From Chiloscyllium plagiosum (lineage: Eukaryota), in the NCBI RefSeq assembly GCF_004010195.1, contig NC_057719.1, positions 47,516,331 to 47,562,878 on the forward strand: a stretch of DNA of 46,548 nucleotides, in the 5' to 3' direction. This document shows, one piece after another, positions 4,593 to 32,644 of the stretch; the stretch's first letter is position 1; each line of letters starts with the position of its first letter. The notes below the pieces were generated by a model, which was not told the origin of the DNA, ran no database searches, and saw only the letters and a list, made by a program, of their open reading frames with translations. The translations under genes were made by a program, and so were the position numbers.

Positions 4593-4690
4593 GTTCTGAC
4601 AGAGGATCACAGAACCCAAAATGTTAACTCTGTTTTCTCTCCACAGATGCTGCCAGACATGCTAAGTTTTTACAACAATTTGTTTCAGAT
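4593..4690 (+). mobile_element. Penelope-like terminal (pLTR) fragment with a degenerate hammerhead
   Basis: gttctgacagaggatcacagaacccaaaatgttaactctg...cagatgctgccagac matches the right arm of the 9044-9463 element. Confidence 0.7.
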
Positions 4691-4871
4691 AGCATTTATC
4701 TCCATAATTGCTTCCTGTGCCAACATGCTTGTTTTCCATGACAGGTGTATAAGAACACCCAGGTTCTTTTGTACATTAACATTTCCCAGACTATTTGCTT
4801 TTAAACACTACTCAGCCATTCTATTTTTCCTACTGAAGTGGACTACTTCACCTTTAGCCATATTACCTGCC

Positions 4872-5199
4872 AGGGGTGGCACAATGGTTAGCACCGTTGC
4901 CCCCCAGACCCAGGGACCCAGGTTCAATTCCACCCTCTGGTGACTGTGGAGTTTGCACTTTCTCCCCGTGTCAGTGTGGATTTTCTCCAGTTGCTCGGGT
5001 TTCCTCCCACAATGCAAAGATTTGCAAGTTTGGTGGGTTGACCATGCTAAATTGTCTGTAGTGTCTACGGGTGTGCAGGCTAGCTGGATTAGCCATGAGA
5101 AATGCAGCATTACAGGGATGGGGTAAGGCGGTGGGACAGGATGGGATGCTGTTCAGAGGGCCAGTGTGGATCAGATGGGTCTAATGACCTGCTTCCACA
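4872..5199 (+). mobile_element. HE1-type tRNA-derived V-SINE
   Basis: tRNA-like head (tggttagcac A-box, ggttcaattcc B-box), V-domain (tgtggagtttgcac..tctccccgtgtc..gggtttcctccc) and CR1-like tail. Confidence 0.85.
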
Positions 5200-5207
5200 C
5201 TAAAGAT

Positions 5208-8063
5208 AGTATTACAGTGGTGGAAAGGACGATGGATGAGGACTTGCCATCTGAGGTAGTTTGGGCTGAGGTTAGGAATAGGAAAGGTGAGGTCACCCTG
5301 TTAGGAGTCTTTTACAGGCCTCCTAATAGTCCTAGAATCATTGAAGAAAGGATAGGGAAGGTGATTCAGGAGATGAGTGACAGTAATAGGGTGGTTGTTA
5401 TGGGGGACTTTAACTTTCCTGATATTGATTGGGAAAGCTATAGCTCAAGTTCGTTAGATGGGTCAGTGTTTGTTCAATGTGTGCAGGAGAGTTTCCTGAC
5501 ACAATATGTAGACAGGCCAACAAGAGGTGAGGCCATACTGGATTTGGTTCTGGGTAACGAACCAGGCCAGGTGTTAGAATTAGAGGAAGGTGAGCACTTT
5601 GGGGATAGTGACCATAATTCGGTGATTTTTACACTCGTGATGGAGAGGGATAAGTGTGTACTACAGGGCAAGAATTATAGCTGGGGTAAGGGAAATTATG
5701 ATGCGGTGAGGCATGACTTAGGATGTGTGGCTTGGAAAAGGAGACTCCAAGGCAAGAGTGTAAATGATATGTGGAACTTGTTCAAGGGGCAACTATTGAG
5801 TGCCCTTGATAATTATGTACCTGTCAGGCAGGAAGGAAAGGGTCGTGCGAGGGAGCCGTGGTTTAATAAGGAATTGGAATCCCTTGTTAAAGGGAAGAGG
5901 GCGGCCTATCTCAAGATGAGACGTGAAGGTTCAATTGGAGCGATAGAGAGTTATAGGGTAGCCAGGAAGGACCTGAAGAGAGAGCTAAAAGCAGCAAGGA
6001 GGGGACATGAAAGGTCCTTAGTAGATAGGATTAGGGAAAACCCTAAGGCTTTCTATAGGTATGTCAGGAATAAAAGAATGACTAGGGTAGGAATAGGTCC
6101 AGACAAGGATAGTAGGGGGAAGTTGCGTGTGGAGGCGGAAGAGATTGGGGAGACACTGAATGAATACTTTTCTTCAGTATTCACTCAGGAACAGGGCATT
6201 GTTGTCGATGAAAATACTGAGGCACAAATAAGTAGAATGGATGGCTTTGAGGTATGTAGAGAAGAGGTGTTGGAAATCCTGGAAAAGGTGAAAATAGATA
6301 AGTCCCCTGGGCCTGATGGCATTTATCCTAGGATTCTCTGGGAAGCAAGGGAGGAGATTGCAGAGCCATTGGCCTTGATTTTTATGTCCTCTTTGTCTAC
6401 AGGAGTAGTCCCAGAAGACTGGAGGATAGCAAATGTGGTTCCCTTGTTCAAAAAGGGGAGTAGGGATAGCCCTAGTAACTATAGGCCGGTGAGTCTCACT
6501 TCCGTTGTGGGCAAAGTCTTAGAGAGAATTGTAAGGGATAGGAGTTATGCACATCTGGATAGGAATAATGTGATCAAGGACAGTCAGCATGGTTTTGTGA
6601 AGGGCAAGTCGTGCATCACAAACCTTATTGAATTCTTTGAAAAGGTGACGAAGGAGGATGATGAGGGGAAAGCGGTAGATGTGGTATATATGGATTTTAG
6701 TAAGGCGTTTGATAAGGTTCCCCATGGTAGGCGACTGCAGAAAATACGGAGATATGGCATTGAGGATGAGTTGGAGGTTTGGATTAGGAATTGGCTAGAT
6801 GGAAGAAGACAGAGGGTAGTAGTTGATGGCAAAGTTTCTTCATGGAGTGCCGTCACTAGCGGTGTTCCGCAAGGATCTGTTTTGGGACCATTGCTGTTTG
6901 TCATTTTTATAAATGACCTGGAAGAGGGGTAAGNNNNNNNNNNNNNNNNNNNNNNNNNNNNNNNNNNNNNNNNNNNNNNNNNNNNNNNNNNNNNNNNNNN
7001 NNNNNNNNNNNNNNNNNNNNNNNNNNNNNNNNNNNNNNNNNNNNNNNNNNNNNNNNNNNNNNNNNNNNNNNNNNNNNNNNNNNNNNNNNNNNNNNNNNNN
7101 NNNNNNNNNNNNNNNNNNNNNNNNNNNNNNNNNNNNNNNNNNNNNNNNNNNNNNNNNNNNNNNNNNNNNNNNNNNNNNNNNNNNNNNNNNNNNNNNNNNN
7201 NNNNNNNNNNNNNNNNNNNNNNNNNNNNNNNNNNNNNNNNNNNNNNNNNNNNNNNNNNNNNNNNNNNNNNNNNNNNNNNNNNNNNNNNNNNNNNNNNNNN
7301 NNNNNNNNNNNNNNNNNNNNNNNNNNNNNNNNNNNNNNNNNNNNNNNNNNNNNNNNNNNNNNNNNNNNNNNNNNNNNNNNNNNNNNNNNNNNNNNNNNNN
7401 NNNNNNNNNNNNNNNNNNNNNNNNNNNNNNNNNNNNNNNNNNNNNNNNNNNNNNNNNNNNNNNNNNNNNNNNNNNNNNNNNNNNNNNNNNNNNNNNNNNN
7501 NNNNNNNNNNNNNNNNNNNNNNNNNNNNNNNNNNNNNNNNNNNNNNNNNNNNNNNNNNNNNNNNNNNNNNNNNNNNNNNNNNNNNNNNNNNNNNNNNNNN
7601 NNNNNNNNNNNNNNNNNNNNNNNNNNNNNNNNNNNNNNNNNNNNNNNNNNNNNNNNNNNNNNNNNNNNNNNNNNNNNNNNNNNNNNNNNNNNNNNNNNNN
7701 NNNNNNNNNNNNNNNNNNNNNNNNNNNNNNNNNNNATAAGATGATTAGGGGGTTAGATAGGGTTGACAGTGTGAACCTTTTCCCGCGTATGGAGTCGGGT
7801 ATTACAAGGGGGCATAGCTTTAAATTAAGGGGGGGTAGATATAGGACTGAAGTTAGGGGTAGGTTCTTCACTCAGCGAGTCGTAAGTTCATGGAATGCCC
7901 TGCCAGTAGCAGTGGTGGACTTTCCCTCTTTATGGGCATTTAAGCGGGCATTGGATAGGTATATGGAGGATAGTGGGTTAGTATAGGTTAGGTGGGCTTG
8001 GATCGGCGCAACATCGAGGGCCAAAGGGCCTGTACTGCGCTGTATTCTTCTATGTTCTATGTT
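5208..8063 (+). mobile_element. Young 5'-truncated CR1 LINE: partial APE endonuclease plus reverse transcriptase ORF2, spanning an assembly gap
   Basis: Uninterrupted frame to 6932 with [41 protein letters not shown] and [16 protein letters not shown]2 C-terminus ends at 7986, followed by a (ttctatg)n tail. Candidate TSD ctaaagat at 5200-5207 and 8064-8071. Confidence 0.95.
6934..7735. other. Assembly gap (802 N)
   Basis: Run of N inside the CR1 copy. Confidence 1.
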
Positions 8064-9043
8064 CTAAAGATTCAATGATGATTTGTCCACTCACTGAACT
8101 TAGAGCATGAAATGCAACTTAGATATGTCCTCCTAAGCAAACTTAATCCCACCGAGTTTTATGTCACATGTTTTTAATCCCTCATTCAAATTTTGATATG
8201 TATTGTGAATAGCTGGGGTTCAAACACTAACCACTGCAATACTTCACTCGTCACCTCTTTCCACTCTGAAATAGATCTATTTATTCCTACTCTGTTTCTT
8301 GTCTGCGAATTAATTGTCAGTCTGGTTAGCCTGCTAACAGTAGTAGGAAATGCTGGAGTCTATCCGAAAGGACTTCACATTCAGCCACCACAGTATTAAC
8401 GCAAATGTGATTTGCCCACTCAGTATATAGATTTAAATCACCCATATAAATCATGATTTATGTAGCACAATTGTTGGATGTATTTCTAATTTTCTGTTTA
8501 ATGCCATTCCCACTTGGTATAATTACTACAGTTGGACACTGATGCTTAACAACAACCATGAATGTTTTCTGCTCCTTGTTGCATCATAGCTGCACCTGGA
8601 CTGATTTGTACATCTAGATTTCCTGCATCAGTATCCTTTCTCATACTGCACTGGTTTTGTCTATCTTTAACAACATCATCCATCTTGTTTCCACTTGCCC
8701 CTCCTTAAAAGTTGAATGCACTTGATCACCCCATAGTCACCTCCTGTAATCAAAATTATATTGTACCTATTTATAATTCTGTACTGTGATCTTGGGTGGA
8801 TTTAAAGCATGAGGGTTGAAACTTGAGTTGGAATCCACATTGGGTTGATTCTGAGCTGGATGCAGTCACTGAGGAATGTGATATGGTTGTGGAAATGAAT
8901 TTTAGCAAATTCTTGGTCAAACACCAAGTGTGACAGTGAAATTAACTAATATCGGTGGATAAAAAAAACAATTGAAACAGAAATCCGATAGAGAGAAGCA
9001 GAACTTCAAGGTGAGCATGCCTAGAAGAGATGTGGCAGTAAGT

Positions 9044-9463
9044 TAAATGAAAACCGAAAGAACTATTTTTGTGTTACAGAAATGAAAAACCAATTGCTGG
9101 AAAAGCTCGGCAGTTATGGCAGCATCTGTGAAGAGAAATCAGTTAACATTTCTGGTCCAGTGACCCTTGCTCAGAACAGTTCTGAGGAAGGATTGCCACA
9201 CCCAAAACATTAACTCTGATTTCTCTTCACAGATGCTGCCTGACCAGCTGAGCTTTTCCAGCAGGGCAAAAGTGAAGACTGCAGATGCTGGAGATCAGAG
9301 TCTAGATCAGAGTGGTGCTGGCAAAGCACAACAGATCAGGCAGCATCCGAGGAGCAGGAAAGTCGACGTTTCAGGCAAAAGCCCTTCATCAGGAATGAGC
9401 TTTTCCAGCAATTTGTATTTTGTTTCTGATTAACACAAACACAGTTCTTTCGGTTTTTATTTA
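9044..9463. mobile_element. Palindromic PLE-derived mini-element (centre 9178) containing a nested insertion
   Basis: Ends taaatgaaaaccgaaagaact / agttctttcggtttttattta are reverse complements with 1 mismatch. Centre is ctcagaac-a-gttctgag. Both arms carry a degenerate CTGAGGA-AGGGTC-ACTG-GACCC-GAAACGTT-type hammerhead. Confidence 0.85.
9264..9395 (-). mobile_element. PLE pLTR insertion with hammerhead core, nested in the element above
   Basis: 15-bp TSD tgagcttttccagca at 9249-9263 and 9396-9410. Minus strand reads attc-CTGATGA-A-GGGC-TTTT-GCCT-GAAA-CGTC-gact. Confidence 0.88.
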
Positions 9464-9676
9464 GTACAATTTTGTACTGTTCATCAACCTTATTTGAAAT
9501 GTTCTGCATTTAGATGCAGTGCCTTGTGACTTGTCTTTTTGACATTTTTGTTTTTTTGTACTCCAGCCCTATTTAGTGTTCAAGGAGAAAGTGAGGTCTG
9601 CAGATGCTGGAGATCAAAGTTGAAACTTTATTGCTGGAACAGCACAGCAGGTCAGGCAGCATCCAGGGAACAGGAG

Positions 9677-9711
9677 ATTCGACGTTTCGGGCACAGGCCC
9701 TTCTTCAGGAA
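9677..9711 (-). ncRNA. Mirror-image minimal hammerhead motif on the antisense strand
   Basis: Minus strand reads UUC-CUGAAGA-A-GGGC-CUGU-GCCC-GAAACGUC^GAAU. Helix I is only 3 bp. Confidence 0.6.
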
Positions 9712-9712
9712 A

Positions 9713-9752
9713 GGATTCCTGAAGAAGGGCCTGTGCCCGAAACGTCGAATCT
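9713..9752 (+). ncRNA. Minimal type I hammerhead ribozyme motif, predicted cleavage after GUC 9746
   Basis: GGAUUC-CUGAAGA-A-GGGC-CUGU-GCCC-GAAA-C-GUC^-GAAUCU. Helix I GAUUC/GAAUC, conserved CUGANGA and GAAA, 4-bp helix II, loop-less palindromic helix III ACGU. Activity not demonstrated. Confidence 0.75.
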
Positions 9753-9999
9753 CCTGTTCCCTGGATGCTGCCTGACCTGCTGTGCTGTTCCAGCAATAAA
9801 GTTTCAACTATTTAGTGTTCAGCCTTGTGACCTCTGCCTTCCACTTTTCTAGATTTCCTTTGTCTTCATTCCCCTTATGCTTGTCTCTCCCCACTTAGGC
9901 TCCTGTCCCTTTGCTACTCTAACTCAAATCCTTCCCTGCTAATCTACAGATACTGTACAATGACTCCAGTTGCTACTCCAAATGTGAAATGGAATTTGT

Positions 10000-10095
10000 A
10001 GTGGCTGCAGCATAGATAAACTTCCTGCACATGTGGTTATCTTGGACACTGGAAGTGTCACTGACTTTCCACATCACACAGGAAGCATTCCATCT
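10000..10095 (-). mobile_element. Probable CR1 ORF1 zinc-finger-region relic
   Basis: Reverse complement translates to ..SCVMWKVSDTSSVQDNHMCRK.., resembling the C-x2-C-MW...CxKC motif of fish/shark CR1 ORF1. Confidence 0.45.
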
Positions 10096-10330
10096 GCCTG
10101 AGCTGGCTTGACATGACTTAGCCTTAAATTTAGTTTTGATTTACTTCGTCTGGTTTACAGAATAATAAATATTCCAGCAACCTTATCATTTTTCTTGTAC
10201 TTTAAACATGCTTAATCTAAACAAAGGCCCAATAATTATTTAGAGCACTGTGGAAACCTTAATCTTTTCATTTTTCAAGGTCTCTATTCGTCGTGTATTA
10301 GTTCCAGTGATGACCTTGTATTTTTTTCTA

Positions 10331-10779
10331 TGGTTGAAAAATGTGGTGCTGGAAAAACAGCAGGCCAGGCAGCATCCGAGGAGCAGGAGAATCGACGTTT
10401 CGGGCATAAGCCCTTCTTCAGGAATGAGGCTGGTGTGCCAAGTGGGCTTAGATAAAAGGTAGGGGGGAGAGAATTTGGGAGAGGGGCGCTGGGAATATGA
10501 TAGGTGGAAGGGGGTGAGGGTGATAGGCCGGAGAGGAGGTGGAGGCGAAGAGGTCAGGAAGATGATTGCAGTTCAAGAGGGCGGTGCTGAATCCGGGGGT
10601 TGGCCTCCCCCCTTCCTTTTATCTCAGCCCGCTTGGCACACCAGCCTCATTCTTGAAGAAGGGCTTATGCCCGAAATGTCGATTCTCCTGCTCCTCGGAT
10701 GCTGCCTGGCTTGCTGTGTTTTTCCAGCACCACACGTTTCAACTCTGGTCTCCAGCATCTGCAGTCCTCACTTTCTCTT
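10331..10779. mobile_element. Fold-back PLE element with inverted arms (about 10333-10469 and 10604-10743)
   Basis: Arms are near reverse complements. The minus-strand hammerhead core at about 10389-10426 is intact (CTGAAGA-A-GGGC-TTAT-GCCC-GAAACGTC); the plus-strand copy is mutated (TTGAAGA...GAAATGTC). Possible TSD tttttttcta at 10321-10330 and 10780-10789. Confidence 0.88.
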
Positions 10780-10871
10780 TTTTTTTCTAAAATATTGACA
10801 AAACTTGCCCTTTCTGGTCTCATCAAGGCTATTTCCCAGTTATGTACCACTTCTGATCTTTTAGGTTTCAA

Positions 10872-11490
10872 AGTGGCTAGGGTTTCTGGACGTGTTTTGT
10901 CAAACCCTAGCCACTGTCCCCTACATCAAAGACATGTCAGAAATGACTGCCAGACTACTCAGACCCCTTGGCATCACGGTAGCCCACAAACCCACCAACC
11001 CACTAAAACAGCAGCTGATGAACTTGAAAGACCCTGTACAGACACCAAGCAAAATTAATGTCATTTAGAAAATACCATGCAAAAACTAACAAACACTACA
11101 TTGGACAAACAGGCAGAAAACACCAGGATACATGAACACCAACTAGCCACAAAATAACATGACCCTATCACTAGTATCCTTACAGCTAAGGAAGGAGGAC
11201 ACCACTTCGACTGGGACAACATATCCATCTTAGGACAAGCCAAACAGAGACACTCAGAATTCGCAGAAGCATGGCATTCCAACTGGAATTCTATCAACAA
11301 ACACATCAAGTTAGACCCCATCTACCACCCCCCTGAGAAAAAGATCAGGAAATGACATCACCACAGGAAATGACATGACCAATCCAAAGAAACCCGAACT
11401 TATAAATAGAAAGCAGGCATCATGTACAGTTCTTCGCCTGAGGTCCACTGAAGATGTTACCTAGTAGGGTGATGAGCAAACCTACATCCA
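10872..11490 (+). mobile_element. Penelope-like retroelement 3' fragment (Poseidon-like), GIY-YIG endonuclease relic
   Basis: Broken frame reads PYIKDMSEMTARLLRPLGITVAHKPTN..LKDP..NVI*KIPC..HYIGQTGRK..RIHEHQ..HHFDWDNISILG..EAWHS..SINKHI. Truncated hammerhead ctgaagatgttacctagtagggtgatga near 11448. Short 5' inversion at 10872-10885 / 10902-10915. Confidence 0.88.
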
Positions 11491-12264
11491 TGTTCCCAAG
11501 TTGTGAAACTCTCCAGGTATTTTAGTTATATAACAACAGTCAACTTTCATCCTATTTTATAGTCCTAACAGGACAAATGTGGTCCCTTTCAACTAGCACA
11601 TAGTATCCAATTCCCATTTGTATCTTATCCACATTATTATTTTACACTATGTAAACTCCACACACACCAGCATCTTCTGTTACTAGTTAGTATGCTTAAT
11701 CCTTGTACATATTCTACATTTTTATTACTACTCCTTTAAACACAATACAAATTAATAATCATTCTTCTATGAAATGAATCATTGTTAATGGTTTATAACT
11801 TTGATTTTTATCTCAGATTTTTCCTCACGCCTGACATTTAATTATTTAGCTTATTGCTCTTGATTAATCTCCTTAAAGTATGATTGTCTGTTTCCTGATT
11901 ATTTCCATAGCATTCCTTAGCACTTTCACATTTATTAAACAAACAGTGAAAACTGCAATTTGTTAAAAGAAAATGATGAGAGAAAATTGCTTCCTATCTC
12001 AATATGGGGTTTAAATTATATTATCTTTAAGGCATCAAATGCAATTATTGAGACCCTAGTTCTTACAGTGAAGGGAAGCAAATGATCAAGATTATTCAAC
12101 CGAAAACCAAAGGAGAATCATATCAGACTGGAAACATTAGTTATTATTTCTTTCTGCAGAGATACTGCCAGACCTGCTGGGTTTCTCTTGCCCTTAGTGT
12201 TTTTTTTATTATTTCTTTTGGAGAGTGAGCTAGTTAATTCCAAACCACCAATATTTCTCCATGG

Positions 12265-12725: not shown

Positions 12726-13315
12726 ATCTCAAACTTCTTTCTTCAAATATTTAGTCCATTTCCTTTTTGAAAGCTACTATCTAATCTGTCCACCAGCCTA
12801 TCAGGTGGAGCAACATAAATGTGAGCCACGTGCTAGCTTTTTAAGAAATTTTTTTCCTCAAGTTGTTCTTGTTCTATTGCTAAGTATCTTGTCTGTGCCC
12901 TCTGGTTAATCAACACTTTAGCTTTCTGTTTATTCTATGTAAACCTGGGATCAGAATTTTTTTCAATATTCTTTAAGGTATACTTTAATACTTTTTGGTT
13001 TTTTTTCAGGGGTTTATTTTTCATTAATTAGTCATTTATTAGATGTTATCATTTAATAGCATTGCCTTCTGTATTTTAGTTTGGGGCTTTCTTCTTTAGA
13101 AACAAACATTTGTACCTTATATCCATACTAAATCATTTAACTTGAAACTGTAAATAAGCCATTTTTGTTTATTTTAATAAATAAATTCCCAAACTTTTTA
13201 AATAGAGGCTCATGAGCCTAAACTGACAAGTTAGTAGATGAATTAGGGCAGTCCTCACTTTCTCCTAATATAAGAGTTTCCAAATTGTAAATGTGACAGC
13301 TAATATGAAAATTCA

Positions 13316-13502
13316 AAGATGTGCAGGTTAGGTGGATTAGCCATGCTAAATTGTCCTGTAGTTTTCAGGAGTGTGCAGGCTAAGTGGATTAGCTATGGGG
13401 AAATGCAGGGATGGGGTGGGTCTGGGCAGATGCTCTTTAGAGGGTCAGTATAGGTCCAATGGACTGAATGGCCTGCTTCCAAAATTAATGGATTTCTATG
13501 AA
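13316..13502 (+). mobile_element. HE1-type SINE, 3' half
   Basis: aagatgtgcaggttaggtggattagccatgctaaattgtcc...gattttctatg-like tail, shared with 4872-5199. Confidence 0.8.
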
Positions 13503-16500: not shown

Positions 16501-16663
16501 ATTCCTGATACATTATCAGCAGAAATAATGGATCAAGGAATCACTGCATATTCCAGTTGGAATTGGAATATTTAAATGAGAATTGAGGTGATACTTGTAT
16601 TGAAAATATTCTTTACTCCAAAATCAGATATCACCATGGCTCAGTTGTGGCACTGTTGTTTGA

Positions 16664-18595: not shown

Positions 18596-18865
18596 TATGT
18601 TTCACAATGTATAAAGTATCTGACTTCTTGTTTAAAAGCAAGAGCTTAGAGCAACTAGTGATGGGAAAATAAACCAATTTTCTTTGGGCTTTAGGTGTTT
18701 TCTTTTAGTGCAAAGGCAAAGCTAGCACCTTCCTTTCCAGAGGTCCGAAGGCTTCTGACCATCCTATTCACACCCTGCTCAGTTACCTGAGAGACTATCT
18801 TAGTTGTTCGCAGATGGTTGGCGTTTGTCATCAACAACTGGGAAGGCAGCATGACAGTGTGGTTA

Positions 18866-18989
18866 GGAAGGGTTTTTGCCCGAAACATCTATTTTCCTGC
18901 TCCTCGGATGCTGCCTGACCTGCTGTGCTTTTCCAGCACCACTCTAATCTAGATTCTGATCTCCAGCATCTGCAGTCCTCACTTTTGCC
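18866..18989 (+). mobile_element. PLE pLTR insertion starting within the hammerhead core, inserted in a CR1 fragment (CR1 continues to about 19360)
   Basis: gaagggtttttgcccgaaacatc...ctgcagtcctcacttttgcc, flanked by tggtta(g/a)gaagg at 18860 and 18990. Confidence 0.82.
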
Positions 18990-21529
18990 TGGTTAAGAAG
19001 GCATACAGGACACTTGCCTTTATCAGTCTTGGCAAAGATTATAAGAGCAGGGGAGGGGTTTTTTGTTGTTGCGGCGGTTAGACTGCAACTGGAGTATTGC
19101 ATGCAGTCCAGGTCACTGTACTATAGGAAGAATGTTATCGCAGTAGATGGGGTGAGATTCACTTGAATGTTGCCTGGGAGGAGAGGTTGGATAAGCAGAG
19201 ATGGCTGAGAGGGACCTGATTGAGGTGTGTAAGACTGGGTTGTTGGAAAACAGCTGTGTCCCTTAACTAAAGGGTCATTAACAAGGGGCATAATTTTCAG
19301 TTGAAAAGCAGGGGGCTTGAGGAAAAACCTTTTCACTCCGAGGGTGGTACGAATCATCTGGTGTTAAGTGTGACAGTGGGTGAGAAGTGCCAAAGGTGTT
19401 GGAGCTACGAACAGTATCAGGAGTGGCAAGATTGTTGAAGAGTTTGGAAAGGGATATGTAGTGCAAAAGCTGAAAGGAAGGGTTGAACACATTTTTGTCA
19501 GAGGGCAGCGAAGGTGAAAAATGTTGCTGTACAAAGTTGCAAGTGGTGAAAAGTGTCAGGGTGACTTATTAATGGGAAGAATGAGAAATAATCATAGTTA
19601 AGTATTTAAAAACAGATCTAAAGTTTGACCTCAAGTGGTATGCCTTCAGCACAGGAGGTGAAAGTAGTATGGTGTAATTAGGATTGTGCCTTGCCAATAT
19701 GCCTTCAATTTCTAGCATCAGAAGGCTGCTGTTTTGAACAAGATCATTGGCATCCATTTTCACTCCACTGCTGATTGGTAATTCCAGATTTGTTTTTTTC
19801 CAAATTAGTGATAATTTTATGAATGAATGTCAACTTGTTTGATTGTAAAGCTATTCTTGGAGAATATCTCTCCTCCCTGGAGAAAAGTTTCCTTGCCTAT
19901 GTAATTGAGTAAGACCATTTTGGAGTTTGGGGTCTGTGTCAGAATCTGTTGAATATGGGCTAACAAATTTTTAAAAAGGTGCATTGGAGGTACAGAAATA
20001 TTGGACAAGAATATTGTCTGAAAGTAATATCACTCAAGGCACTGTGCAATTTCCAGTTTTTAAAAAAAAAACTTCCAGACCACACTGCTGAGGTCTACAT
20101 TGGTTGCTCAACTCTAATTTCCCATGGGAAGGTGCCTGTGTCATCTCGAGCTACTGTAACCAATCTGATGCAGGAGCATCCACAAACTGGGTGGGAATTC
20201 CAGGATCTTGATCCAATGAGAAATAGCAACACTGTTACAAGCCAGTGGGGCTTGGGGGAGAACTTGCAAATTATGCCTCTGCTTCCATGTCCTTCTAGTT
20301 GGTAGAGGTATTAGTTGGGTCATTTTGAAAGAAGTTTGGTAAACTTCCAAAATACATCTTATACTGGGTACACTAGACTGTGTGCTTTAGCAATGAAGGA
20401 AGTGCATGTTTAAGATGTTAGATGAGTACATCATCATTTAAATTTGCCTTTGATTGCATTGAGCATCTTGAGCACTGTTTTGCACCAAACTCCCCTAAGA
20501 AAGCAAAGAGTATTCCATCACATTCTGACTTCTATCTCATAAATAGATTGTGGGCTGACTAGGAAGACTGGTTATGAATTACATATTGTAGGTTCCTTGC
20601 CTGTACAATTTTTGGTCAATGGTATAGCCAGGAAGCTGCAGAGAATCTGTGATCATAATGCCATTAAATGTCAATGGGAGATGGTAAGACTGTCCCGTTG
20701 GACATGTGTAGTGTGAATGTTACTTATTAATCAAAGTCTGAATGATGTCTTCGTCTTGCTACATATGATCACAAGCCAATTAATGTTCAAACTTGGCAAC
20801 TCACTCTCCCATCTTTCTACTCTGGTGTTTACAGTCAATTTTTATGAATTGGCAAGTAATAATAAAAAAACAGTTTTGCTGTTATGCATTTGCTGCAAGC
20901 AACTACTGTTTTCTATTTGCAGATTGCTGCAACAATACACTGCACTTTGTTCTCTTTGCATTTTGAATGAGAATCTGGTTTCAGATTTGATTTTATTAAA
21001 TTAATTCGTGTTTTCTCAAGCTGGTACATCATGTTTATTGTCCATTATCTGCCAAGACTTGTGTTTGGAGAGTATTATTTTAAATTAGTAGCTTTGCCAA
21101 TATTGTGTTCAATGACACTTACAGTAATATTGCTAGATAAATCTCAGTGGGAATTTGCTAGTGAAGTGCCATTAATTATATTTTTTTAAAAGAACAGAAA
21201 TGATGTTTTCTTAAATTTTAACTTGTAGAATATTATTTGTGCAGCAAAATGGATTATCACCACTTGTAAATGTCAGAGTATTCTGATGCATCTTTAAGGA
21301 AAAATATGTAATTCCTCACCGGTGAAGTTCATTTTAAGCCAATGGATGAGGCAAGGAAAAAAACCTCAATCACCTTGATATTGCAACTTTTTTTCTTGCT
21401 CATTAGACGTGCATATTGCTGGCTAGACAATCATTTATAGTCTATCTCTAATTGCCCTGAAATAATTAGAGTTCTGCCTTGAGCTACTGCAGTTCTTGGC
21501 TTGTAGGTACATCTGCAGTGCTGAAAACT

Positions 21530-22845: not shown

Positions 22846-23421
22846 CCTATCTGGAACTCCGTACACCCACAGCCCTCCCATAATTTTATTATACTTCACT
22901 GAGGTGGATGTTGCCTGACCTGTGCTTTTCCAGCACCACACCCTCTACTCTGGCACATTGAATGTCAAATCCTGCTATTACTGGAGTCTTAACAATTAAC
23001 AACTTTAACAGGTGCAAAATTGCCCAATTTATCTGGTTTTTTTAACCCAGATTGACTGAGGCATAGAACAGGTTTCTGTACTTAATGATTATTATTTATT
23101 ACTAGTAAATAGATTCTAGCTACATGTAAATGACTATGAACAGTCGATGTAAAACCCTACTAATTAAAACACTAACCTTGCCAAGGGGGAAGACTGGGAA
23201 AGAATTTTAATTGTCCCTGTCTGCAGACTTTGCTAAGATTCTTTTTGTCTTGTCAGGTCCTGTTGCTTTTTGCTCTTCGTTCTTCTTTCTCCAGGAACTT
23301 TCACTTGCTTGTGGAGGTACAGGATGACTGGTTCACACTTGTGTTTTTGCTAACCTACTGGTTAAGCGCTATAGCTTACAGCAGTTGCTGAGGGAAACAA
23401 ATAAGCTTTCTTCAGGCATTC

Positions 23422-23719
23422 GATTAGATTCCCCATAGTATGGAAACAGGCCCTTCAGCCCAACAAGTCCACACTGACCCTCAGAGTAACCCACCAGAAC
23501 CATTCCCTGACCGTATATTTACCCCTGACTAATGCACCTAAAATGGGCAATTTAGCACGGCCAATTCACTTAACCTGCACATCTTTGAAACTGAGCGCCA
23601 GAGGAAACCCATGCAGACACGGTGAGAATGTGCAAACTCCACACACACAGTCACTTGAGGCGGGAATTGAACCTGGAACTGTGAGGCTACAATGCTAACC
23701 GCTGAGCCACCGTGCTGCC
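23422..23719 (-). mobile_element. HE1-type V-SINE
   Basis: Reverse complement starts ggcagcacggtggctcagcggttagca...ggttcaattcc...gtgtggagtttgcacattctc and ends in an (aatct)n tail. Confidence 0.9.
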
Positions 23720-25102: not shown

Positions 25103-25129
25103 TGTGATATGATCTGTTATAACATAAAT

Positions 25130-25880
25130 TAGTTAAAATGGGAACTGAGATAATAGTCATGGATTGAGCATTGGGAAATGGTCAGAAACCGAATAAGAAT
25201 AAACAGATCATTTGAGGTAATTGATGGGACACCTAAGGACCAGACTTGGGCCTCAGCTATTTTGCAGTCTTTGTCAATTATCTGATTGAGGGGGCCATCT
25301 TGACAATCTGAAGTTTTTGGGCTGTGATCAGATGCTGAGAAAAGATATTTAAATGTTTATTAAATGTCCAACAACATAATTATGGAATACAAGGTGGGGA
25401 GGTGCAAAGTTATCCACTTGGGTAGGAAATGTTTTTAAATAGATTGATACCTGGACTGAGACATTTGACTTGTGAGAAGAAGTTAAATAAATTAGTCCTG
25501 TATCCTTAATTTAGAAGCATGAGATGATATCATTGAAACTTTTAAAATTAAGGGCTTTGATGGGCGAAGGGCAAAAGGCATAGGTTTAGAATTAGTGCAG
25601 TCACTGAGTCATTAAGGAGCAGGCCATTAAACGGAGATGAGAAATTTCTTCATTCAAAGGGTTCGGCATCTTTAGAATTCTCCACCCAGAGACCTGTAAA
25701 TAGTCATTGAGTATATTCTAGGAAGAAGTTAACATTGTTTTTGGATACTAAAGAAATTAAACAATATAGGGATAGTCTGGGCAGGTAGAGTTGAGATAGG
25801 TAATCAGTCATGATATTGAACAGTGGAGCATGCTTGAAGGGCTGAAAGGCTTATTTATACTCCTATTTGTCGTATTCTTA
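25130..25880 (+). mobile_element. Degenerate CR1 fragment
   Basis: Residual CKVIHLGRK, IETFKI and RNFFIQRV motifs plus a CR1-like 3' UTR. Confidence 0.6.
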
Positions 25881-26536
25881 TGGAGTTCTAATCATATTAT
25901 CTGAAATTTTTATGTTAAAAGATGGATGTTCTACTGGGTAGTATTCCAAATTTGATAATCTGTTTAGTTATAAATGGGAATAATGAAATGATCAATATAT
26001 AAAAAATCTGCTATCCTGCTTTTTACATCTCTCCTAAAATTTGTAATTTTACGATTCAAAATCATCTTGGATTCTATGAATGGAGTTCCAAATAGTTCCC
26101 TTACAGCAATTCAACATCTATGTCATGAAGTATGCCATGAAATTTACGCATAATATTGTTTATCATCAGAGACAGCCTTTTGTGAAAGGCTGTTTAACTA
26201 AATATTTTTCTTCCAAGCAGAGTTTGGAATGTATGATACAAAAGTACACCAAACTGCTAAATTTAGAAAGTATTTGACATAGCAGATGTGTTGAGTCAGC
26301 CCAACCATTATTGGTTCTGCATTTATGCAGCTGCTCCGGACAATCTTCCGATGATTCAGAGGTAATTTAGCCAGTCACATGGGCTGCCAAATTCATTTTG
26401 AATACCTAGTGTTAAAATATTAGTACTGACTAAGAATTACGACTTCTTACTTTTTGATTAATAAATATGCTAAATACGTTTGATACATAATAAAGGTAAT
26501 TTATCTCTAATAAGCCTGCTATCATTTCAACTACAG

Positions 26537-26646
26537 ATGTTCCAGCATGGCTTAAAAGTTTGCGTCTACATAAGTATGCAGCTCTATTCTCTCAACTAAC
26601 ATATGAAGAAATGATGGCGCTTACAGAAGTACAGTTAGAAGCGCAG
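26537..26646 (+). CDS. SAMD4A: SAMD4A coding exon, N-terminal part of the SAM RNA-binding domain; 110 nt
   Basis: tacAG acceptor and GTatgt donor. G+AT completes Asp, giving [37 protein letters not shown] with the Smaug/Vts1 SAM signature [10 protein letters not shown]. Too short for the ORF track. Confidence 0.97.
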
Positions 26647-26944
26647 GTATGTTGATCATACTGACTTTGTTGCAAAAATATTAATTTTATTGTCTTCTAA
26701 CAATTGAGCTTTAGCAATATGATCTGTTAAATTTGTTATTTGAAATTTTGGGGAAGTTTCGTATTTCTTCACCTTTCTTTATTTACGTGTGTGTCTGAAT
26801 GATCTCTGATCCCTTTTCTGTTTGGAGACCCTTATAATAGTTATTTACCCATTTGTTTGATTTAGTTGTTGTCTCTGTCTCTGTCTCATACATTTCTATA
26901 TGTATTCTGGTAACTTACTATAGATCTGTTTGCCTTTTCCGGAA

Positions 26945-27330
26945 ATAAATTGTGTTTCTATATAGTGCCCTTAATGACCTCTGGATATTCCATAGTGCTT
27001 CACAGCCAATGAAATACATTTTAAACTGTAACCACTGTTCGAAAGTGGGGAATTTGCAGACAACCAAAATACCCAAACAGCAACAAGAAAAAATGACCAT
27101 GGTGGTTTTGCATGGTTGAGTGAATAATATTGACCAGGACACCTGAAAGCTCCCTTGATGTGTCAGTATTTCTAGGAAATTCCTTAAATTGCTGAGACCA
27201 GACTTAGTTTTCTCCCTCTTTCTACCCCCCCCCCCCCCCCCCCAATGCTGTCTTCAGTACGAATTTTTCTGCTAATTTGAGGTCTGGTCTCTAAAGTGGG
27301 GCATAACCTTCTGGCAGAGAATGCTCATAA
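26945..27330 (-). mobile_element. Old SINE relic, probably DeuSINE/SacSINE1-like
   Basis: Reverse complement contains ggtgtcctggtcaatattattcactcaacc...aatgtatttcattggctgtgaagcactatggaa...gcactatatagaa. A similar relic appears to flank the 16664-17607 CR1. Confidence 0.5.
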
Positions 27331-27525
27331 CACCATTTTTGAAAAAAAAACTTCATTCAACAATGTGCATTGTACTGGGTGGGCAGCAAATTGCCCTTGA
27401 TAACCTTCTTTTGTGTTGAACTGTCATCTTAACCACCTGAGTCCATTTTGATGGAGATATTTCCACTAGACTGTTAGGGAGTTCCAAGACTTTCATTTAG
27501 TCATGTGAAAGGGGTAGTGATATAT

Positions 27526-27656
27526 AGGCAAAAGTGAGGACTGCAGATGCTGGAAACCAGATTCTAGATTAAACTGGTGCTGGAAAAGCACAGCAGGACA
27601 GGCAGCATCCGAGGAGCAGGAAAATCGATGTTTCGGGCAAAAGCCCTTCATCGGGA
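27526..27656 (-). mobile_element. PLE pLTR insertion with a mutated hammerhead, inside an antisense LINE relic
   Basis: Minus strand reads ttc-CCGATGA-A-GGGC-TTTT-GCCC-GAAA-CATC. TSD agtgatat at 27516-27523 and 27657-27664. Confidence 0.85.
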
Positions 27657-28919
27657 AGTGATATGTCCTACATAAAAGTGGAATGTCACTTGGGATATCT
27701 GTGCAGGTAATGGTGCATGTATATGTCTGCTGCCCTTGTCTTGGTAAATTTCTACAGTGCATCTTGTAGCTGGGGATTATTATTATTAATAATAATAATA
27801 ATATCATCCTCCAGTCAAGGGGCTACATTGTCCTGGATGGTGTCAAGCTGCTTCAATGTTGTTGGAGCTGCATCTATACAGACAAGTAGGGAGTAATCCA
27901 TCACACTCCTGACCTGTGCTTTGTTGAAGTGTTGATAACACAAAGTTACCTGACTACCCACAATCTATTTTCATTTAGCCTTAACTCTGTGGAAGTTTAG
28001 TGTTATTGAATAGAGGTTCAGGTACATTGTTCTTTGAAAGTTGCGTCATAAGTAGACAGCGTGGTTAAGAAGGCTTTTGGCATGCTTGCCTTCATTGCTC
28101 AGACTATAGAGTATAGAAGTTAGGATGTTATGTTTAGGCTGTACAGGATGTTGGTGAGGTCACTTTTGGAGTATTGTGTACAACTGTATCAACATGTTGA
28201 CTTTCTGACTCCGTACAGGGCCACCCTGATCCCTCTGTACCTCCGAATTCTGTAGCCTCTTGATTTGAATAATATTCTATTTTGTGTATTCTTCATTACA
28301 AAATGGGGAGCTTAAAATTTCCCATGCTCTCTTCCATCTGAAGAACTATTGCTGATTTGTTTAATTATCCTTGGTATCTTTGCAGAATATTTGACTTGGA
28401 TCTTTCAGTTAGCGACAAAGCAAAGATGTATGTCACTGACTTTGTTTAAAAAGTATATTCTCACCTTTTCATAGACTATATCAGGAACTTGCTGTCCTGG
28501 TAGCAACATGGAGCAATTGTGAGTTTGGTGGGTGGGGGGAGATGTGGTTGCCTCATTCAGTTCTAGCTGAAGCCAATATACTCAAGCTCAATAACTGGTT
28601 TTATTTTTAATGATTTCAAACATTTTCTTGTAATGTGCATCTATTTCTAACTTAATTGTGCCCCCCCCCCCCCGCCTTGTTCCTCAAGCTCTGCTCATAG
28701 TCATACCACCCGCCATGCTTTGTACACCACTTCTTGCCCAGTCAATCCCTGACTCTGTTGTATTATTGGTGCTAATTTCAATCATTAAGTTGATGAGAAA
28801 ATGATCAGAGACCAGTGTCATGAACAAAGTAAAAATGGGGTGTGAATTTATGATTATCTTTTCTCTCAATTAAAAGACTGCAAAGTATTGTTTAATGTAG
28901 TCTTTTCTGAAGTGTTTAT

Positions 28920-30021
28920 TTCAGGTCACACAAAAGAGATTGGATGACAGGGTAATTTTTTTCTGACCGTATTGTTGATGTTTTCAGGGATGTTTTTAGG
29001 AATTGTTGCAGGAGAAAAGATTCAAAATGCTATTTCTACCTCCAAGCATATCCTGTCATTCAACCCATGGACCAGGGTGCAAAAGCAACTTTTAAAACTT
29101 ATTGTTTAAGGACAGCATTCAGGGAGCTGATTGTAGCTACTAAAAGGGATAATGAGGACAGTGTTCTTCAATTTTGGAAGAACTTTAATATTAAGAATGA
29201 TATTGGCATCACTATGGAGGCGTGGGGTGATGTCAGTGAGGTCTGCCTGCATGCAGTTTGGCGGAAGATTCTCCCACATTTTATCTTCAAGATTTTAAAG
29301 GTGTTGAACTATCCGAGGAGCTTCCAGCAATCAAAGAATATTGTGTCAGTCTTGCAAAGCAAGTTGGATTTGAAGAAGTGGTGACTGATCTACAACAAAT
29401 TGTTGCTGTGGGGGGAATTGAAGCTCAAGATGAAGACTATCAAGTCCAGGATCAGCACCACGAGAACTTCCCATTTCTATCCTGAGAAGTTGAGAAGCAG
29501 TGCAACTCTTAGAAGATAATGACTACAATGCAGAACACAGCAGGATAGCAGTTTGTGGCATAAAGTCTGATATGGCAGTCTATGAACAGCTGCTTCATGA
29601 AGGAAGAAAGATGGCAAAGCAGCAAAAACTAGATGCTTTTTTTTTAAGCCAACCCCTAATAAGCAGCCATCCACTTCTGGGCTAAATATTTTTGTCATAA
29701 TGCTGCACCCAGAATGGCACCTGAGAGTAATGATGCTGATAACACTCAGCCCCCGTCTTAATACAGTACTAAAACTCAGCAAACTCAAACTGATTTAAAG
29801 TGTCACGTTTATTGTATTATTTCACTAAAATATGACTTTAAAATTTATTGACAGTGCTAATGTTTGTTAGGCTAACTACTTTTATTTCAATTTTTACTGA
29901 TGTTTTTGCTCGGTTGCCTCAACTGTGTTTTTCCCATAGACCCGGTTATTTCTATTGCGTGATATTCTATAACACGAGTTTGCACGAGAACGCAACTACT
30001 GTGTTATAGCAGAACAGACTA
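28920..30021 (+). mobile_element. Tigger/pogo-like DNA transposon relic (DDE transposase C-terminal part and right end)
   Basis: IQPMDQGAKATFKTYCLR...FWKNFNI..EAWGDVS..AVWRKILP matches the pogo/Tigger QPMDQG motif. TIR-like end gttatagcagaacagacta at about 30003-30021. Confidence 0.8.
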
Positions 30022-31344
30022 TTGTTGCTGTAGGTCTGGTCTCCCCAGTGCCTTGTACATTTGTAGCAAAATTTCCCTATTTTTGTACTTCATCCTGCTT
30101 GCAATAAAGGTCAATGTTCCATTTGCCTTCTGAATTACTTATGCTAACTGCCTGTGAGCTTTTTGTGTTTCATGTTCAAGGACTTCCAGATTCAATTTAT
30201 GAACTTAGTTGAGAATAGTAACCATTTTTAAATAAAAGAAGAAATGTGAAATCAGAGCTCTTTTGCAGGAAGTGTGTAGAAGCCACAAGACTAGAACATC
30301 AAACAAAGCAAAATGCAATATCTTGGGTAACTGCCTATAAATGAAATTTGAATAAAGAGACAAACTATGCTTGATTATGAACTATGGATTCTGCATTCAA
30401 TGCTAGATATCACAAAGATCTTAAGAATTAGATCGGCAGTCAACTCAGCATGTATGTCATCAATTTTGGATACCATACCCTTTAATACAAGTCATTATGA
30501 AGAATTTTCAATTCTTCACCGAGTGTTTAGCCTGATATCCAGCTGACAGCAGTACGTAGCCAACCTGAATTTCATTGCCTTCCCCAAAAATGCGATATAT
30601 CTGCACAACATCTTCAACTTTGATGTTCTGAATAATGAGATCCACCTTCATGTAACAGAAACACAGCAGAAACTGTATATTTGCTTATTTGTAGCATCTA
30701 GATCTAGCCCCTGTCGTCTATAGCTAGCCGGCACTGCATCATCTGAATTCTAAAAGCTTTTAATGTCCTTATACATAACTTCAATCTCCCAGAAGTTTTC
30801 AATTTCAGTTTTAGTTCTCTTAGAAATTGAAAGGTCAGTTTCACTTCCAGTTAGAGGGGGGGGGTCTCAAAATAATACAAGCTTCCGAAACTTGGAATCC
30901 AATCACACTCCTGCTTTAGGGAAAAAGAAGATTTTAGTAAACATTTCTTCACAACAGTTTTGAAATACAGCAAGTTATCATTCTGAATATTTTTCAAAAT
31001 AGCTTCACATGTAATAGTGAAAGTTGAGTATTACACATTTTATAATTTATCAAATAAGAGCTTAACCAGAGCAGAATCATGTAAATATAACAATGGATTA
31101 GCATGTTTCAGACATCACAGAATTAACATAACTCAGGCTACTTTCTGTCCTACACATTTTTTTAAAACTTTGGCAGCTTGTCGGCATCATTGTCCACTGG
31201 CAACATGGTCACTCTTCTTAAGGGCTGAGTGCTGGCAAATGGGACTAGATTAGGTTGGGAAACCTGGTCGGCATGGACAAGTTGGACTGAAGGGTCTGTT
31301 TCCATGCTGTTCATCTGTCAACTGACCATAATAAGTCATAGTCA

Positions 31345-32644
31345 AAGTTGGAAATCTCACAACACTAGGTTATAGTCCAACAGGTTTATTGGGAAGCACT
31401 AGCTTTCGGAGCACTGCTCCTTTTATCAGGTAGTTGTGAAGTATAAGATCATAAGACACATCTTACAGCAAAAGATTACAGTGTCATAGTGATATATTGA
31501 ACAAACCTGGATTGTTAAGTATTTCTTCTTTTAGAAGGCAGGTTTTGGTTCATTAATATGTAAATCCCGAAACTACTTTAAGTCATTTTCTTGAGATAAT
31601 TTAAGGCTTTATAACAAAAGGTGATATCTCAGCTCAAACAATGCATTAAAGATGTGAGGCGTGACACCGGAGTGTCTATATCCCAGTCTTGAGTCAGACC
31701 AGTTCTATTTTAAAAGTTGAATTTAGAAAATATGACATGGATTGACTACCTGCAGATTGTGCATTTTTTGAGCAAAATAGAATGTATCTACAAATACAAA
31801 TTCATCCCATAGACTTTGTGTGTGAGAGAAAGCTTGGTAAATTGTGTGTGTGGGGGGGGGGTATGATGGATATAAGCCTGTGTGTATGTATGAGAGAGGG
31901 TCTGTGTTAGTGTGAGTATGTCAGTGTATGTGAGTGCGTATAGTGTAGTTGGGTTACCTGTCTTGCGACATGAACCCAAGATCTCTGTTGAGGCCATCCT
32001 CGTGTGTACGCCCACCCCCATACTTTCACCCACCCACCTCTCTCAGGCTTTTACTCCATTACACCGACCCCCACACTTCAGCTTTCACACATGCAAACGT
32101 GCACCCACTCACATGCACATGCTTGCACTCTGTCTCTCATGCACTCACACGCACAAGTTTATGGGGGAATTTATAATTGCAGAATTATATTTGCAGATAC
32201 ATTCTATTTTGCTCGAAAAATGCACAATCTGCAGGCAGTCAATCCATGTAATATTTTGTAAATTCCACTTTGGAAATAGAACCAGTCTGACTCAAGATTG
32301 GAATACAGACAGATCTAACCTCACATCTTTAATGTATTTGCTGAGCTGAGATGTCACTTTTTGTTATAAACCTTAATTTATCTCGAAAGTGACTTAAAAG
32401 AAGTTCTGGGATTTACAATGTTAATGAATCATCATCTTTTAGAATGCAGGTTTTGGAAGACTTAACAATCCAGATTTGATCAATCTATCATTATGACACT
32501 GTAATCTTTTGCTATAAATTGTCTTATGACTTTATACTCCACAACTACCTGACCAAGGAGCAGTGCTTTGAATATCATGTTGGACTATTACCTGATGTGT
32601 GGTTTCTAACTTTGTCCATCCCAATCCATCCCAGCTCCTCCACA
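31345..32644. mobile_element. Large fold-back PLE (Neptune-like) with diverged inverted arms of roughly 0.5-0.6 kb
   Basis: About 31345-31935 is the reverse complement of about 32050-32610. The central minus strand encodes HEDGLNRDLGFMS, a PLE GIY-YIG ORF end. Minus-strand hammerhead at 31396-31434. TSD tcatagtca at 31336-31344 and 32645-32653. Confidence 0.85.

What the first reader, a model, noticed from the sequence alone, without database searches (positions are those of the whole stretch)
4593..32560. At least four PLE families with covarying minimal hammerheads; helix III palindrome switches ACGU to AGCU
Seen: helix II varies while staying paired: GGGC-CUGU-GCCC (9727), GGGC-UUAU-GCCC (10401 minus), GGGC-UUUU-GCCY (9373, 27635 minus), GGGUC-ACUG-GACC (9150 minus) and GGAGC-AGU-GCUCC (31408 minus). 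Helix I also changes in compensation: GAUUC/GAAUC, GUU/AAC, UAC/GUG. The post-GAAA segment is ACGU(C/U) in most families but AGCU(A) in the 31.4 kb family, each a 4-nt palindrome with no loop. Inference: selection maintains an obligately dimeric ribozyme across divergent shark PLE lineages. PLE hammerheads are known in general, but I do not know whether these shark variants, with an extra nucleotide after CUGANGA, have been characterised.
Basis: partly seen in the sequence, partly recalled or inferred. Interest (0 to 1): 0.7.

Follow-up and report, generated by a model that had tools for sequence, protein, structure and literature searches.

The report
Decayed Penelope hammerheads, published minimal type
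These are scattered, mostly mutated end pieces of Penelope-like jumping genes carrying an already described minimal hammerhead ribozyme that likely cuts only as a pair; the ACGU/AGCU difference between families is real but already in print, and one family's RNA gets a poly(A) tail just past the predicted cut site.

Summary
The motifs are real: 4 exact-descriptor hits against 0.02 in shuffles. They are 3' pLTR stumps of Penelope-like elements, with inverted arms, one-sided tails, 8-14 bp target duplications and endonuclease remnants.

The covariation is overstated. Three of the listed helix II variants share one stem. Helix I GAUUC/GAAUC occurs in one copy only, and UAC/GUG is a copy mutation of the family's CAC/GUG. 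ACGU is intact in only 4 of 10 readable F1/F2 copies. AGCU holds family-wide in two organisms.

The extra nucleotide, palindrome variation including AGCU, covariation and dimer model were published in 2014. No cartilaginous fish is among those 56 rows, so these are new members of a known kind. Selection is inferred to act on active elements, not on these decaying copies. Obligate dimer cleavage was not tested.

Side lead: an AAUAAA 10 nt past the F3 cut site is used for polyadenylation (1,575 of 3,027 laid RNA reads), and reads cross the cut site uncleaved. The scan found similar inverted insertions earlier on other pieces of this genome.

The parts
4593..4628 (+). F2 hammerhead remnant (C3 4596): core damaged, helix II 3/5, palindrome decayed to AUGU, helix I GUU/AAC
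9095..9263 (.). F2 head-to-head inverted pair, arms 66/84 identical. Hammerheads at 9174 minus (G8>C, AUGU, helix II 4/5) and 9182 plus (G12>A, ACAU)
9264..9396 (-). F1 insertion nested at the end of the F2 plus arm, 14-bp target duplication (9250-9263 / 9397-9410). Hammerhead C3 9392, intact core, ACGU-C, helix I 2 bp
9583..9807 (.). F1 head-to-head inverted insertion: 94-bp perfect arms, 14-bp target duplication (9569-9582 / 9808-9821), tail on the minus arm only. Intact hammerheads at 9708 minus (helix I 3 bp) and 9719 plus (helix I 6 bp, predicted cut after 9746)
10331..10779 (.). F1 head-to-head inverted insertion: 10-bp target duplication (10321-10330 / 10780-10789), tail on the plus arm only. 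Hammerheads at 10421 minus (intact, ACGU) and 10653 plus (C3>U, AUGU)
10913..11331 (+). Frameshifted GIY-YIG endonuclease remnant of a PLE (Poseidon-like by recalled motifs)
   Evidence: tblastn to RT-bearing protein P0003, E 4e-18 and 3.5e-14
11448..11475 (+). F4 hammerhead 5' half (CUGAAGA, extra U, about 6-bp helix II). GAAA and palindrome lost. About 100 nt downstream of the endonuclease remnant
   Evidence: helix read by eye
18862..18990 (+). 5'-truncated F1 copy, core lost, palindrome decayed to ACAU
27524..27656 (-). F1 copy with 8-bp target duplication (27516-27523 / 27657-27664). Hammerhead C3 27654, U4>C, palindrome decayed to ACAU
31345..32644 (.). F3 head-to-head inverted insertion: arms 467/617 identical, 9-bp target duplication (31336-31344 / 32645-32653), tail-like extension on the plus arm
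   Evidence: tail compared by eye with the DNA loose ends at 31343
31397..31432 (-). F3 hammerhead (C3 31429): helix II GGAGC/GCUCC, AGCU palindrome 31404-31401, A17 at 31400. This copy's core is broken; the family majority is CAC CUGAUGA A
31385..31390 (-). AAUAAA starting 10 nt 3' of the predicted F3 cleavage site
31370..31373 (-). Poly(A) addition sites of F3-family RNAs: oligo-dT loose ends in 884, 119 and 572 reads; no A-tract downstream in this copy
31963..32007 (-). Last 15 codons of a Neptune-like (recalled label) GIY-YIG endonuclease, 534 nt upstream of F3 C3 on the same strand
   Evidence: 10/15 identical to the C-terminus of P0001, E 0.06, weak by itself
32546..32590 (+). Second F3 hammerhead remnant (C3 32549), core mutated and palindrome region deleted

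Best explanation
These are 5'-truncated, mostly mutated 3'-end (pLTR) insertions of three to four Penelope-like retrotransposon families, each carrying the published minimal type I hammerhead, which in the active parent elements likely cuts only when two copies pair through the 4-nt palindrome. SHOWN: the motifs, the PLE insertion anatomy, the family-level AGCU of F3, and the decay of most copies. INFERRED: A15.1-N-N-U16.1 cannot close a normal hairpin. Two hammerheads on one tandem transcript, or two RNAs held by the PLE protein, would swap strands, forming both helix I stems in trans and a 4-bp helix III from the two palindromes. Any self-complementary NN (CG, GC, UA, AU) would do, so ACGU and AGCU are likely equivalent lineage variants fixed in the active master elements. 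The likely outcome is slow, conditional cutting of tandem transcripts into unit-length RNA. The copies in this window are likely dead-on-arrival fragments: their paired hammerheads lie on opposite strands and could not dimerise in cis.
For: Descriptor hits of 4 and 7 against shuffle means of 0.02 and 0.12.

PLE anatomy: head-to-head arms, a tail on one arm and 8-14 bp duplications at 5 of 8 sites examined, as described for PLEs. An endonuclease remnant lies upstream of F4 (E 4e-18).

An intact F3-type hammerhead (CAC/GUG, AGCU-A, downstream AAUAAA) in a marine metagenome lies downstream of a GIY-YIG-like ORF (L087).

With the palindrome left free, 24 of 35 metagenome hits (21 of 32 distinct) have a perfect 4- or 6-nt palindrome, and 13 of 35 also have H17 and helix I >=3 bp. 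Controls: 14 of 78 and 0 of 78 viral hits; 1 of 8 and 0 of 8 prokaryote hits (the viral pattern was looser).

The double-hammerhead fold is nested and fully pairable within a family. Across families only 2 of 4 helix III pairs and 1 helix I pair form.

Published: monomers inactive, dimers and trimers weakly active.
Against: No cleavage assay was run. Dimer energy is no better than two monomers: -22.1 versus 2 x -11.6 kcal/mol for 9719, and -21.9 versus 2 x -10.9 for L083. RNA depth does not drop at the F3 cut site (2,277 versus 2,175) and no pile of ends is reported. In the anole PLE, cleavage needs the protein, ribozyme-dead mutants still insert in vitro, and no RNA-seq reads end at the site. 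F1 and F2 have no ORF remnant in the window, so their PLE status rests on anatomy. Most F1 copies have only a 2-bp helix I. No target duplication was found for the F2 pair, 18.9 kb (7 bp only) or the F4 element.
Confidence: 0.8

Rival explanations
1. The ribozyme is protein-assisted rather than RNA-dimer-dependent: the PLE protein refolds a single pLTR RNA into the active form, and the palindrome is only a by-product of the minimal helix III.
For: The anole PLE hammerhead shows no cleavage without the element's protein and cleaves with endonuclease-dead protein (PMC11167929). The nearest-neighbour model gives no dimer gain.
Against: A perfect palindrome recurs with different letters across families (ACGU, AGCU, AUAU, AAUU in Fig. 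S3; AACGUU in 21 of 35 metagenome hits). A monomer would not need this beyond one closing pair. Dimers and trimers cleave without protein. The protein is predicted to be a dimer, which is compatible with RNA dimerisation.
Confidence: 0.12
2. The motif is kept as a structural signal (protein-binding or reverse-transcription landmark) or as a passenger, and self-cleavage has little role in transposition.
For: Ribozyme-dead mutants insert normally in vitro. Naiad elements thrive without canonical hammerheads, and the authors raise the possibility that hammerheads parasitise PLEs. F3 genomic 3' ends pile up 42-57 nt past the cut site, so those templates were not cut there, and RNA reads cross the site.
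Against: The full catalytic core, NUH triplet and palindrome are kept across lineages whose helices share no sequence. C3G/G8C rescue shows true catalysis in the anole element.
Confidence: 0.15

Closest known systems
Minimal hammerheads (min-HHR) of metazoan Penelope-like elements, Cervera and de la Pena 2014 (PMC4209133)
   Same: CUGANGA plus one extra nucleotide, G10.1-C11.1, GAAA-palindrome-UH with no helix III loop, short helix I, many covarying families per genome, dispersed single copies and close opposite-strand pairs. ACGU is the majority and AGCU is in 5 of 56 rows of Fig. S3 by my reading (Adineta, Philodina, two Schistosoma, Chrysemys). The Acropora Neptune row has nearly the F1 helix II.
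   Different: No cartilaginous fish is among the 56 rows. Most F1 copies have a weaker helix I (2 bp then a mismatch). The paper calls the 3' flank AU-rich and does not report use of a poly(A) signal (0 hits for those terms).
Small PLE hammerheads that cleave as dimers, Lunse, Weinberg and Breaker 2017 (PMC5785218)
   Same: By its title and a review's summary: palindromic, extremely short stem III, dimer cleavage.
   Different: The text was not held, so I could not check whether shark families or palindrome swaps are covered.
Poseidon PAc of the green anole, Frangieh et al. 2024 (PMC11167929)
   Same: Hammerhead in the pLTR, genomic 3' ends and tail downstream of the cut site, no RNA-seq ends at the cut site.
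   Different: A different family, tested biochemically (protein-assisted cleavage). Nothing here was assayed.
PLE insertion unit with inverted pLTR, tail and target duplication (Arkhipova 2013 PMC3846280; Craig 2021 PMC8557442)
   Same: Head-to-head arms, a 30-40 bp tail on one arm, 8-10 bp duplications.
   Different: Here the units are short stumps without a full ORF; two duplications are 14 bp.
Rfam hammerhead families (Hammerhead_1 and relatives)
   Same: Same catalytic core and type I topology, by inspection.
   Different: No Rfam hammerhead model matched at E <= 1.
Non-LTR retrozymes (bioRxiv 10.64898/2026.07.22.740005)
   Same: Type I hammerheads related to PLE pLTRs; reported in the one chondrichthyan sampled.
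   Different: Retrozymes are head-to-tail tandem arrays. No hammerhead-bearing tandem array is in this window.

Membership tests
PLE minimal hammerhead (Cervera 2014) | CUGANGA core and GAAA | tested here: met
   Exact in 4 of 7 F1 copies; family majority in F3; damaged in 3 of 3 F2 copies
PLE minimal hammerhead (Cervera 2014) | [quoted passage not shown] | tested here: met
   Extra A in 7 of 7 F1 and 3 of 3 F2 copies; extra U in F4. G-C in 6 of 7 F1 and 2 of 3 F2 copies
PLE minimal hammerhead (Cervera 2014) | Palindromic 15.2-16.2 with no loop, NUH triplet | tested here: met
   ACGU-C in 4 F1 copies; AGCU-A/U family-wide in F3; inferred only for F2; unreadable in F4
PLE minimal hammerhead (Cervera 2014) | Helix I of about 3-5 bp | tested here: inconclusive
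   Met in F2, F3 and at 9719 and 9708; only 2 bp before a mismatch in 4 of 7 F1 copies
PLE minimal hammerhead (Cervera 2014) | Self-cleavage, dimer-dependent | not testable with these tools
   Only a fold model and poly(A) reads that would not show the short 3' product
PLE minimal hammerhead (Cervera 2014) | Statistically significant covariation | tested here: inconclusive
   Three lineages only; alignments out of register; R-scape not available. Two-sided changes seen by hand between families, none within F1
Endonuclease-positive Penelope-like elements | Hammerhead 3' of an RT/GIY-YIG ORF on the same strand | tested here: met
   F4: E 4e-18. F3: 15-codon match at E 0.06 plus L087. No remnant found for F1 or F2
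Endonuclease-positive Penelope-like elements | Inverted pLTR, one-sided tail, target duplication | tested here: met
   Three inverted pairs with 9-14 bp duplications and a one-sided tail; two single copies with 8 and 14 bp; none found for 3 of 8 sites
Endonuclease-positive Penelope-like elements | Full-length ORF flanked by direct pLTRs | tested here: not met
Lowers 'active element', not 'PLE-derived'
Rfam hammerhead models | Match to the covariance model | tested here: not met
   3 matches at E <= 1, none a hammerhead family
Non-LTR retrozyme | Head-to-tail tandem units each with a hammerhead | tested here: not met
   5 tandem-repeat rows, none with a hammerhead; pairs are inverted

The most novel reading that the evidence does not exclude
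In the F3 lineage the dimer-gated hammerhead is a switch placed 10 nt upstream of a working poly(A) signal. A lone pLTR stays uncut and yields a polyadenylated RNA. Two same-family pLTRs recognise each other through helix I and the AGCU palindrome and cut the poly(A) end off, changing the RNA from messenger to a ligatable or circular intermediate. Palindrome plus helix I would act as a family barcode that stops ACGU and AGCU families in one genome from activating each other. The many dispersed copies would also supply poly(A) sites to host transcripts.
Probability: 0.12. Interest if true: 0.55.

Novelty: new member of a known kind. Interest (0 to 1): 0.22.

Why it matters
The in vivo role of these ribozymes is still called unknown in reviews, so two things here have some use. 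First, ACGU and AGCU families that coexist in one genome are natural reagents for testing palindrome-specific dimer cleavage. Second, the F3 family places a used poly(A) signal 10 nt past the predicted cut site, which gives a concrete test of what cutting would do to the RNA. I did not find that pairing in my searches, but two key papers could not be read.

Tried and rejected
Rfam scan: no hammerhead family; the MIR2118, potC and mir-1471 matches are below gathering score, and the first two fall on the 9.7 kb palindrome.

No whole genome was held, so no genome-wide family sets or covariation statistics could be made. MAFFT alignments A1 and A2 put F3 and F4 out of register, so no pair-count or covariance model was built on them.

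The viral scan with a general pattern gave 78 chance-like hits, the F1 pattern gave 0 in viral contigs and 8 chance-like hits in prokaryote genomes. These served only as controls.

Pfam found no family on the window's endonuclease fragments or the L087 ORF; homology came from the protein searches and tblastn.

No RNA holder was listed for window 27400-32700. Expression of this particular locus is unknown, because the RNA reads laid are family-wide (132 of 3,027 at 95% identity or more). Reads were laid on F3 only; F1, F2 and F4 family majorities were not checked outside the window.

Rejected: 'five helix II variants equal four or more families'; retrozyme (no tandem array); MITE-like inverted element (arms point outward from a truncation junction and carry a one-sided tail); chance motif.

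Not held: Lunse 2017. Arkhipova 2017 on Terminons did not come up in a search. bioRxiv supplements are closed and may list the chondrichthyan consensus sequences.


Full report
OBSERVATION. All cited strings are present. A descriptor for a minimal type I hammerhead finds 4 copies with an exact core (C3 at 9719+, 9708-, 10421-, 9392-) and 7 with one core mismatch. 100 dinucleotide shuffles give means of 0.02 and 0.12, maximum 1. Similarity searches and inspection give 13 copies with a recognisable hammerhead: 7 F1, 3 F2, 2 F3 and 1 F4. More degraded F1/F2-like remnants near 12.1, 22.9 and 44.9 kb were left out of the counts. Of the 13, 4 are intact in core, helix II and palindrome. Rfam finds no hammerhead at E <= 1.

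The three GGGC/GCCC entries share one stem; only the loop differs, and the copies are 84-90% identical. Within F1 the 3' strand of helix I varies (GAA, GAU, GAC) with no matching change on the 5' side. The 5-6 bp helix exists only at 9719, next to the inversion junction; 4 of 7 copies pair 2 bp before a mismatch. ACGU is intact in 4 of 10 readable F1/F2 copies. The rest read AUGU or ACAU, the two products of CpG deamination (established knowledge), so ACGU in F2 is an inference. The AGCU claim rested on one copy with a broken core. Between families, helices I, II and the palindrome do keep pairing with different letters. But three lineages cannot give significance, and the alignments were out of register.

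TEST OF THE AGCU SWITCH. I laid 4 of 24 listed runs on 31310-31600 at 80% identity: 25,323 contigs of organism A, 25,892 of organism B, 3,988 of a further run and 3,027 RNA reads. No other letter is listed at 31401-31404 (23 weaker rows hidden, some with support as low as about ten reads shown), whereas the neighbouring CpG shows 19-26% decay in the two DNA runs and the loop position about 50% variation. Position 17 is U instead of A in 6%, 10% and 25% (X1, X11, X21 plus-strand mates), which keeps NUH. Position 31432 reads G in 97% of X1 depth, so family helix I is CAC/GUG. Loose ends behind 31422 (823, 892, 1,407 and 216 records) show an intact CUGAUGA core. AGCU is therefore a family trait.

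A metagenome scan with the palindrome left free gave 35 loci. Two of them (L083, L087, one element) have the F3 design with AGCU-A, CAC/GUG extended to 5 bp and a downstream AAUAAA. In L087 it lies downstream of a GIY-YIG-like ORF whose relatives carry RT. Of the 35, 21 have a 6-nt AACGUU palindrome. Overall 24 of 35 are perfect palindromes, against 14 of 78 viral and 1 of 8 prokaryote chance hits; palindrome plus H17 plus helix I >=3 bp is met by 13 of 35, 0 of 78 and 0 of 8. The metagenome hits are related repeats, not independent events, and the viral pattern was looser.

WHAT THE COPIES ARE. Four clear head-to-head pairs occur. Three have target duplications of 14, 10 and 9 bp and an extension on one arm only; two single F1 copies have 14 and 8 bp duplications; none was found for the F2 pair, the 18.9 kb copy or the F4 element. 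This matches the PLE insertion unit: inverted pLTR, optional 30-40 bp tail, short duplication (passages of PMC3846280; PMC8557442). F4 lies about 100 nt behind a frameshifted endonuclease remnant (tblastn E 4e-18 and 3.5e-14 to P0003). F3 lies 534 nt behind a 15-codon match to the C-terminus of P0001 (E 0.06, weak but correctly placed). The labels Poseidon-like and Neptune-like are recalled from protein motifs and come from no call. F1 and F2 have no ORF remnant here.

MECHANISM. Shown: anatomy and decay. Inferred: A15.1 and U16.1 are separated by two nucleotides, so helix III is expected to form between two copies. The double-hammerhead fold is fully pairable within a family; across F1 and F3 only 2 of 4 helix III pairs and 1 helix I pair form. 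Against a simple RNA-only dimer, its energy equals that of two monomers (-22.1 versus -23.2; -21.9 versus -21.8 kcal/mol), so tethering in a tandem transcript or protein help is likely needed. That fits the low activity reported in 2014 and the protein-assisted cleavage, dispensability in vitro and lack of RNA-seq ends reported for the anole element. The paired copies here are on opposite strands and cannot be cis partners. Conservation most likely reflects selection on active parents, followed by neutral decay of inserted stumps.

SIDE FINDING. In the poly(A)-primed single-cell run X21 (about 2% of the run read), oligo-dT loose ends sit before 31370 (884 reads), 31371 (119) and 31373 (572): 1,575 of 3,027 laid reads. 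These sites are 12-15 nt past an AAUAAA that begins 10 nt after the predicted cut, with only 3-5 A in the next 20 nt of this copy. Depth across the cut site is flat (2,277 versus 2,175) and no pile of ends is reported, so hammerhead-sense RNAs of this family are polyadenylated there and many are uncut. Caveats: one sample; reads come from many copies and may include duplicates; a cut 3' product of about 30 nt would probably be lost; 664 loose-end rows were hidden, so genomic A-tracts in some copies are not excluded. DNA ends pile up at 31358, 31352 and 31343-31344, beyond both sites, so insertion templates ran through them. The spacing is not general: AAUAAA is at +49 in the 9.7 kb F1 pair and absent within 140 nt in 3 of 6 copies checked.

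COMPARISON. Cervera and de la Pena 2014 (PMC4209133; main text parts 1-2 of 4, supplement parts 1-2 of 3) list as class features the covarying consensus families, the nucleotide between 9 and 10.1, G10.1-C11.1 and the palindromic 15.2-16.2 positions. They also note close opposite-strand pairs and show weak cleavage of dimers but not monomers. Fig. S3 has ACGU, AGCU (5 of 56 rows by my reading), AUAU and AAUU, and no cartilaginous fish. Lunse 2017 was seen as a title and through a review passage only. Also seen: PMC11167929 parts 1-2 of 4; bioRxiv 10.64898/2026.07.22.740005 part 1 of 5 and passages; passages of PMC6765202, PMC8557442, PMC3846280, PMC7761336, PMC6431247, PMC2377424 and PMC11014351. 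A search for hammerhead ribozyme, Penelope and shark gave one review, listing only. Searches pairing PLE hammerheads with poly(A) signals found no such report, in a library that lacks most subscription papers.

VERDICT. Real, PLE-derived, and a new member of a known kind. The ACGU/AGCU difference is real at family level but already documented for the class. Interest 0.22, most of it from the poly(A) lead. Two earlier notes on other pieces of this genome reached the same reading of the inverted insertions; they are not independent evidence.

Noticed in passing
window 31370-31390 (minus): AAUAAA 10 nt past the predicted F3 cut site, with poly(A) addition at 31370-31373 in 1,575 of 3,027 laid RNA reads. 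The AAUAAA is also present downstream of the F3-type hammerhead in L083/L087.
   Followed up: partly
L079-L113 except L083 and L087: Repeat families in animal-rich metagenomes share helix II GGAGC/GCUCC with F3 but carry a 6-nt AACGUU palindrome (21 of 35 loci). No clear PLE ORF was seen in their flanks.
   Followed up: partly
window 9250-9410: An F1 copy is inserted at the end of the F2 plus arm with a 14-bp duplication: a nested PLE insertion.
   Followed up: yes
window 9365-10421 (minus): Three intact ACGU hammerheads from separate insertions lie on one strand within 1.1 kb; a read-through transcript would carry potential cis partners.
   Followed up: no
window 5127-8057 and 34003-35323: Two related LINE copies with RT (one also with an APE-type endonuclease), 94-97% identical in shared parts. 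The first spans an 802-N gap. CR1-like is a recalled label.
   Followed up: no
window 44860-45075, 12105-12195, 22903-22941: Heavily degraded F2-like inverted pair, an F2-like remnant, and an F1 fragment lacking the hammerhead.
   Followed up: no
window 10835-10910: Short inverted repeat at the 5' end of the endonuclease remnant, probably the inversion junction of the F4 element (seen by eye).
   Followed up: no
F1 and F2 cut sites (e.g. 10394, 9365, 9145): A second short palindrome is centred on the predicted cut site in several F1 copies (UCGA) and in F2 (GUUAAC), but not in F3. It may be coincidence.
   Followed up: no
window 4875-5120, 13300-13450, 23540-23650, 35380-35520: Dispersed short repeat family, SINE-like by recall.
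   Followed up: no
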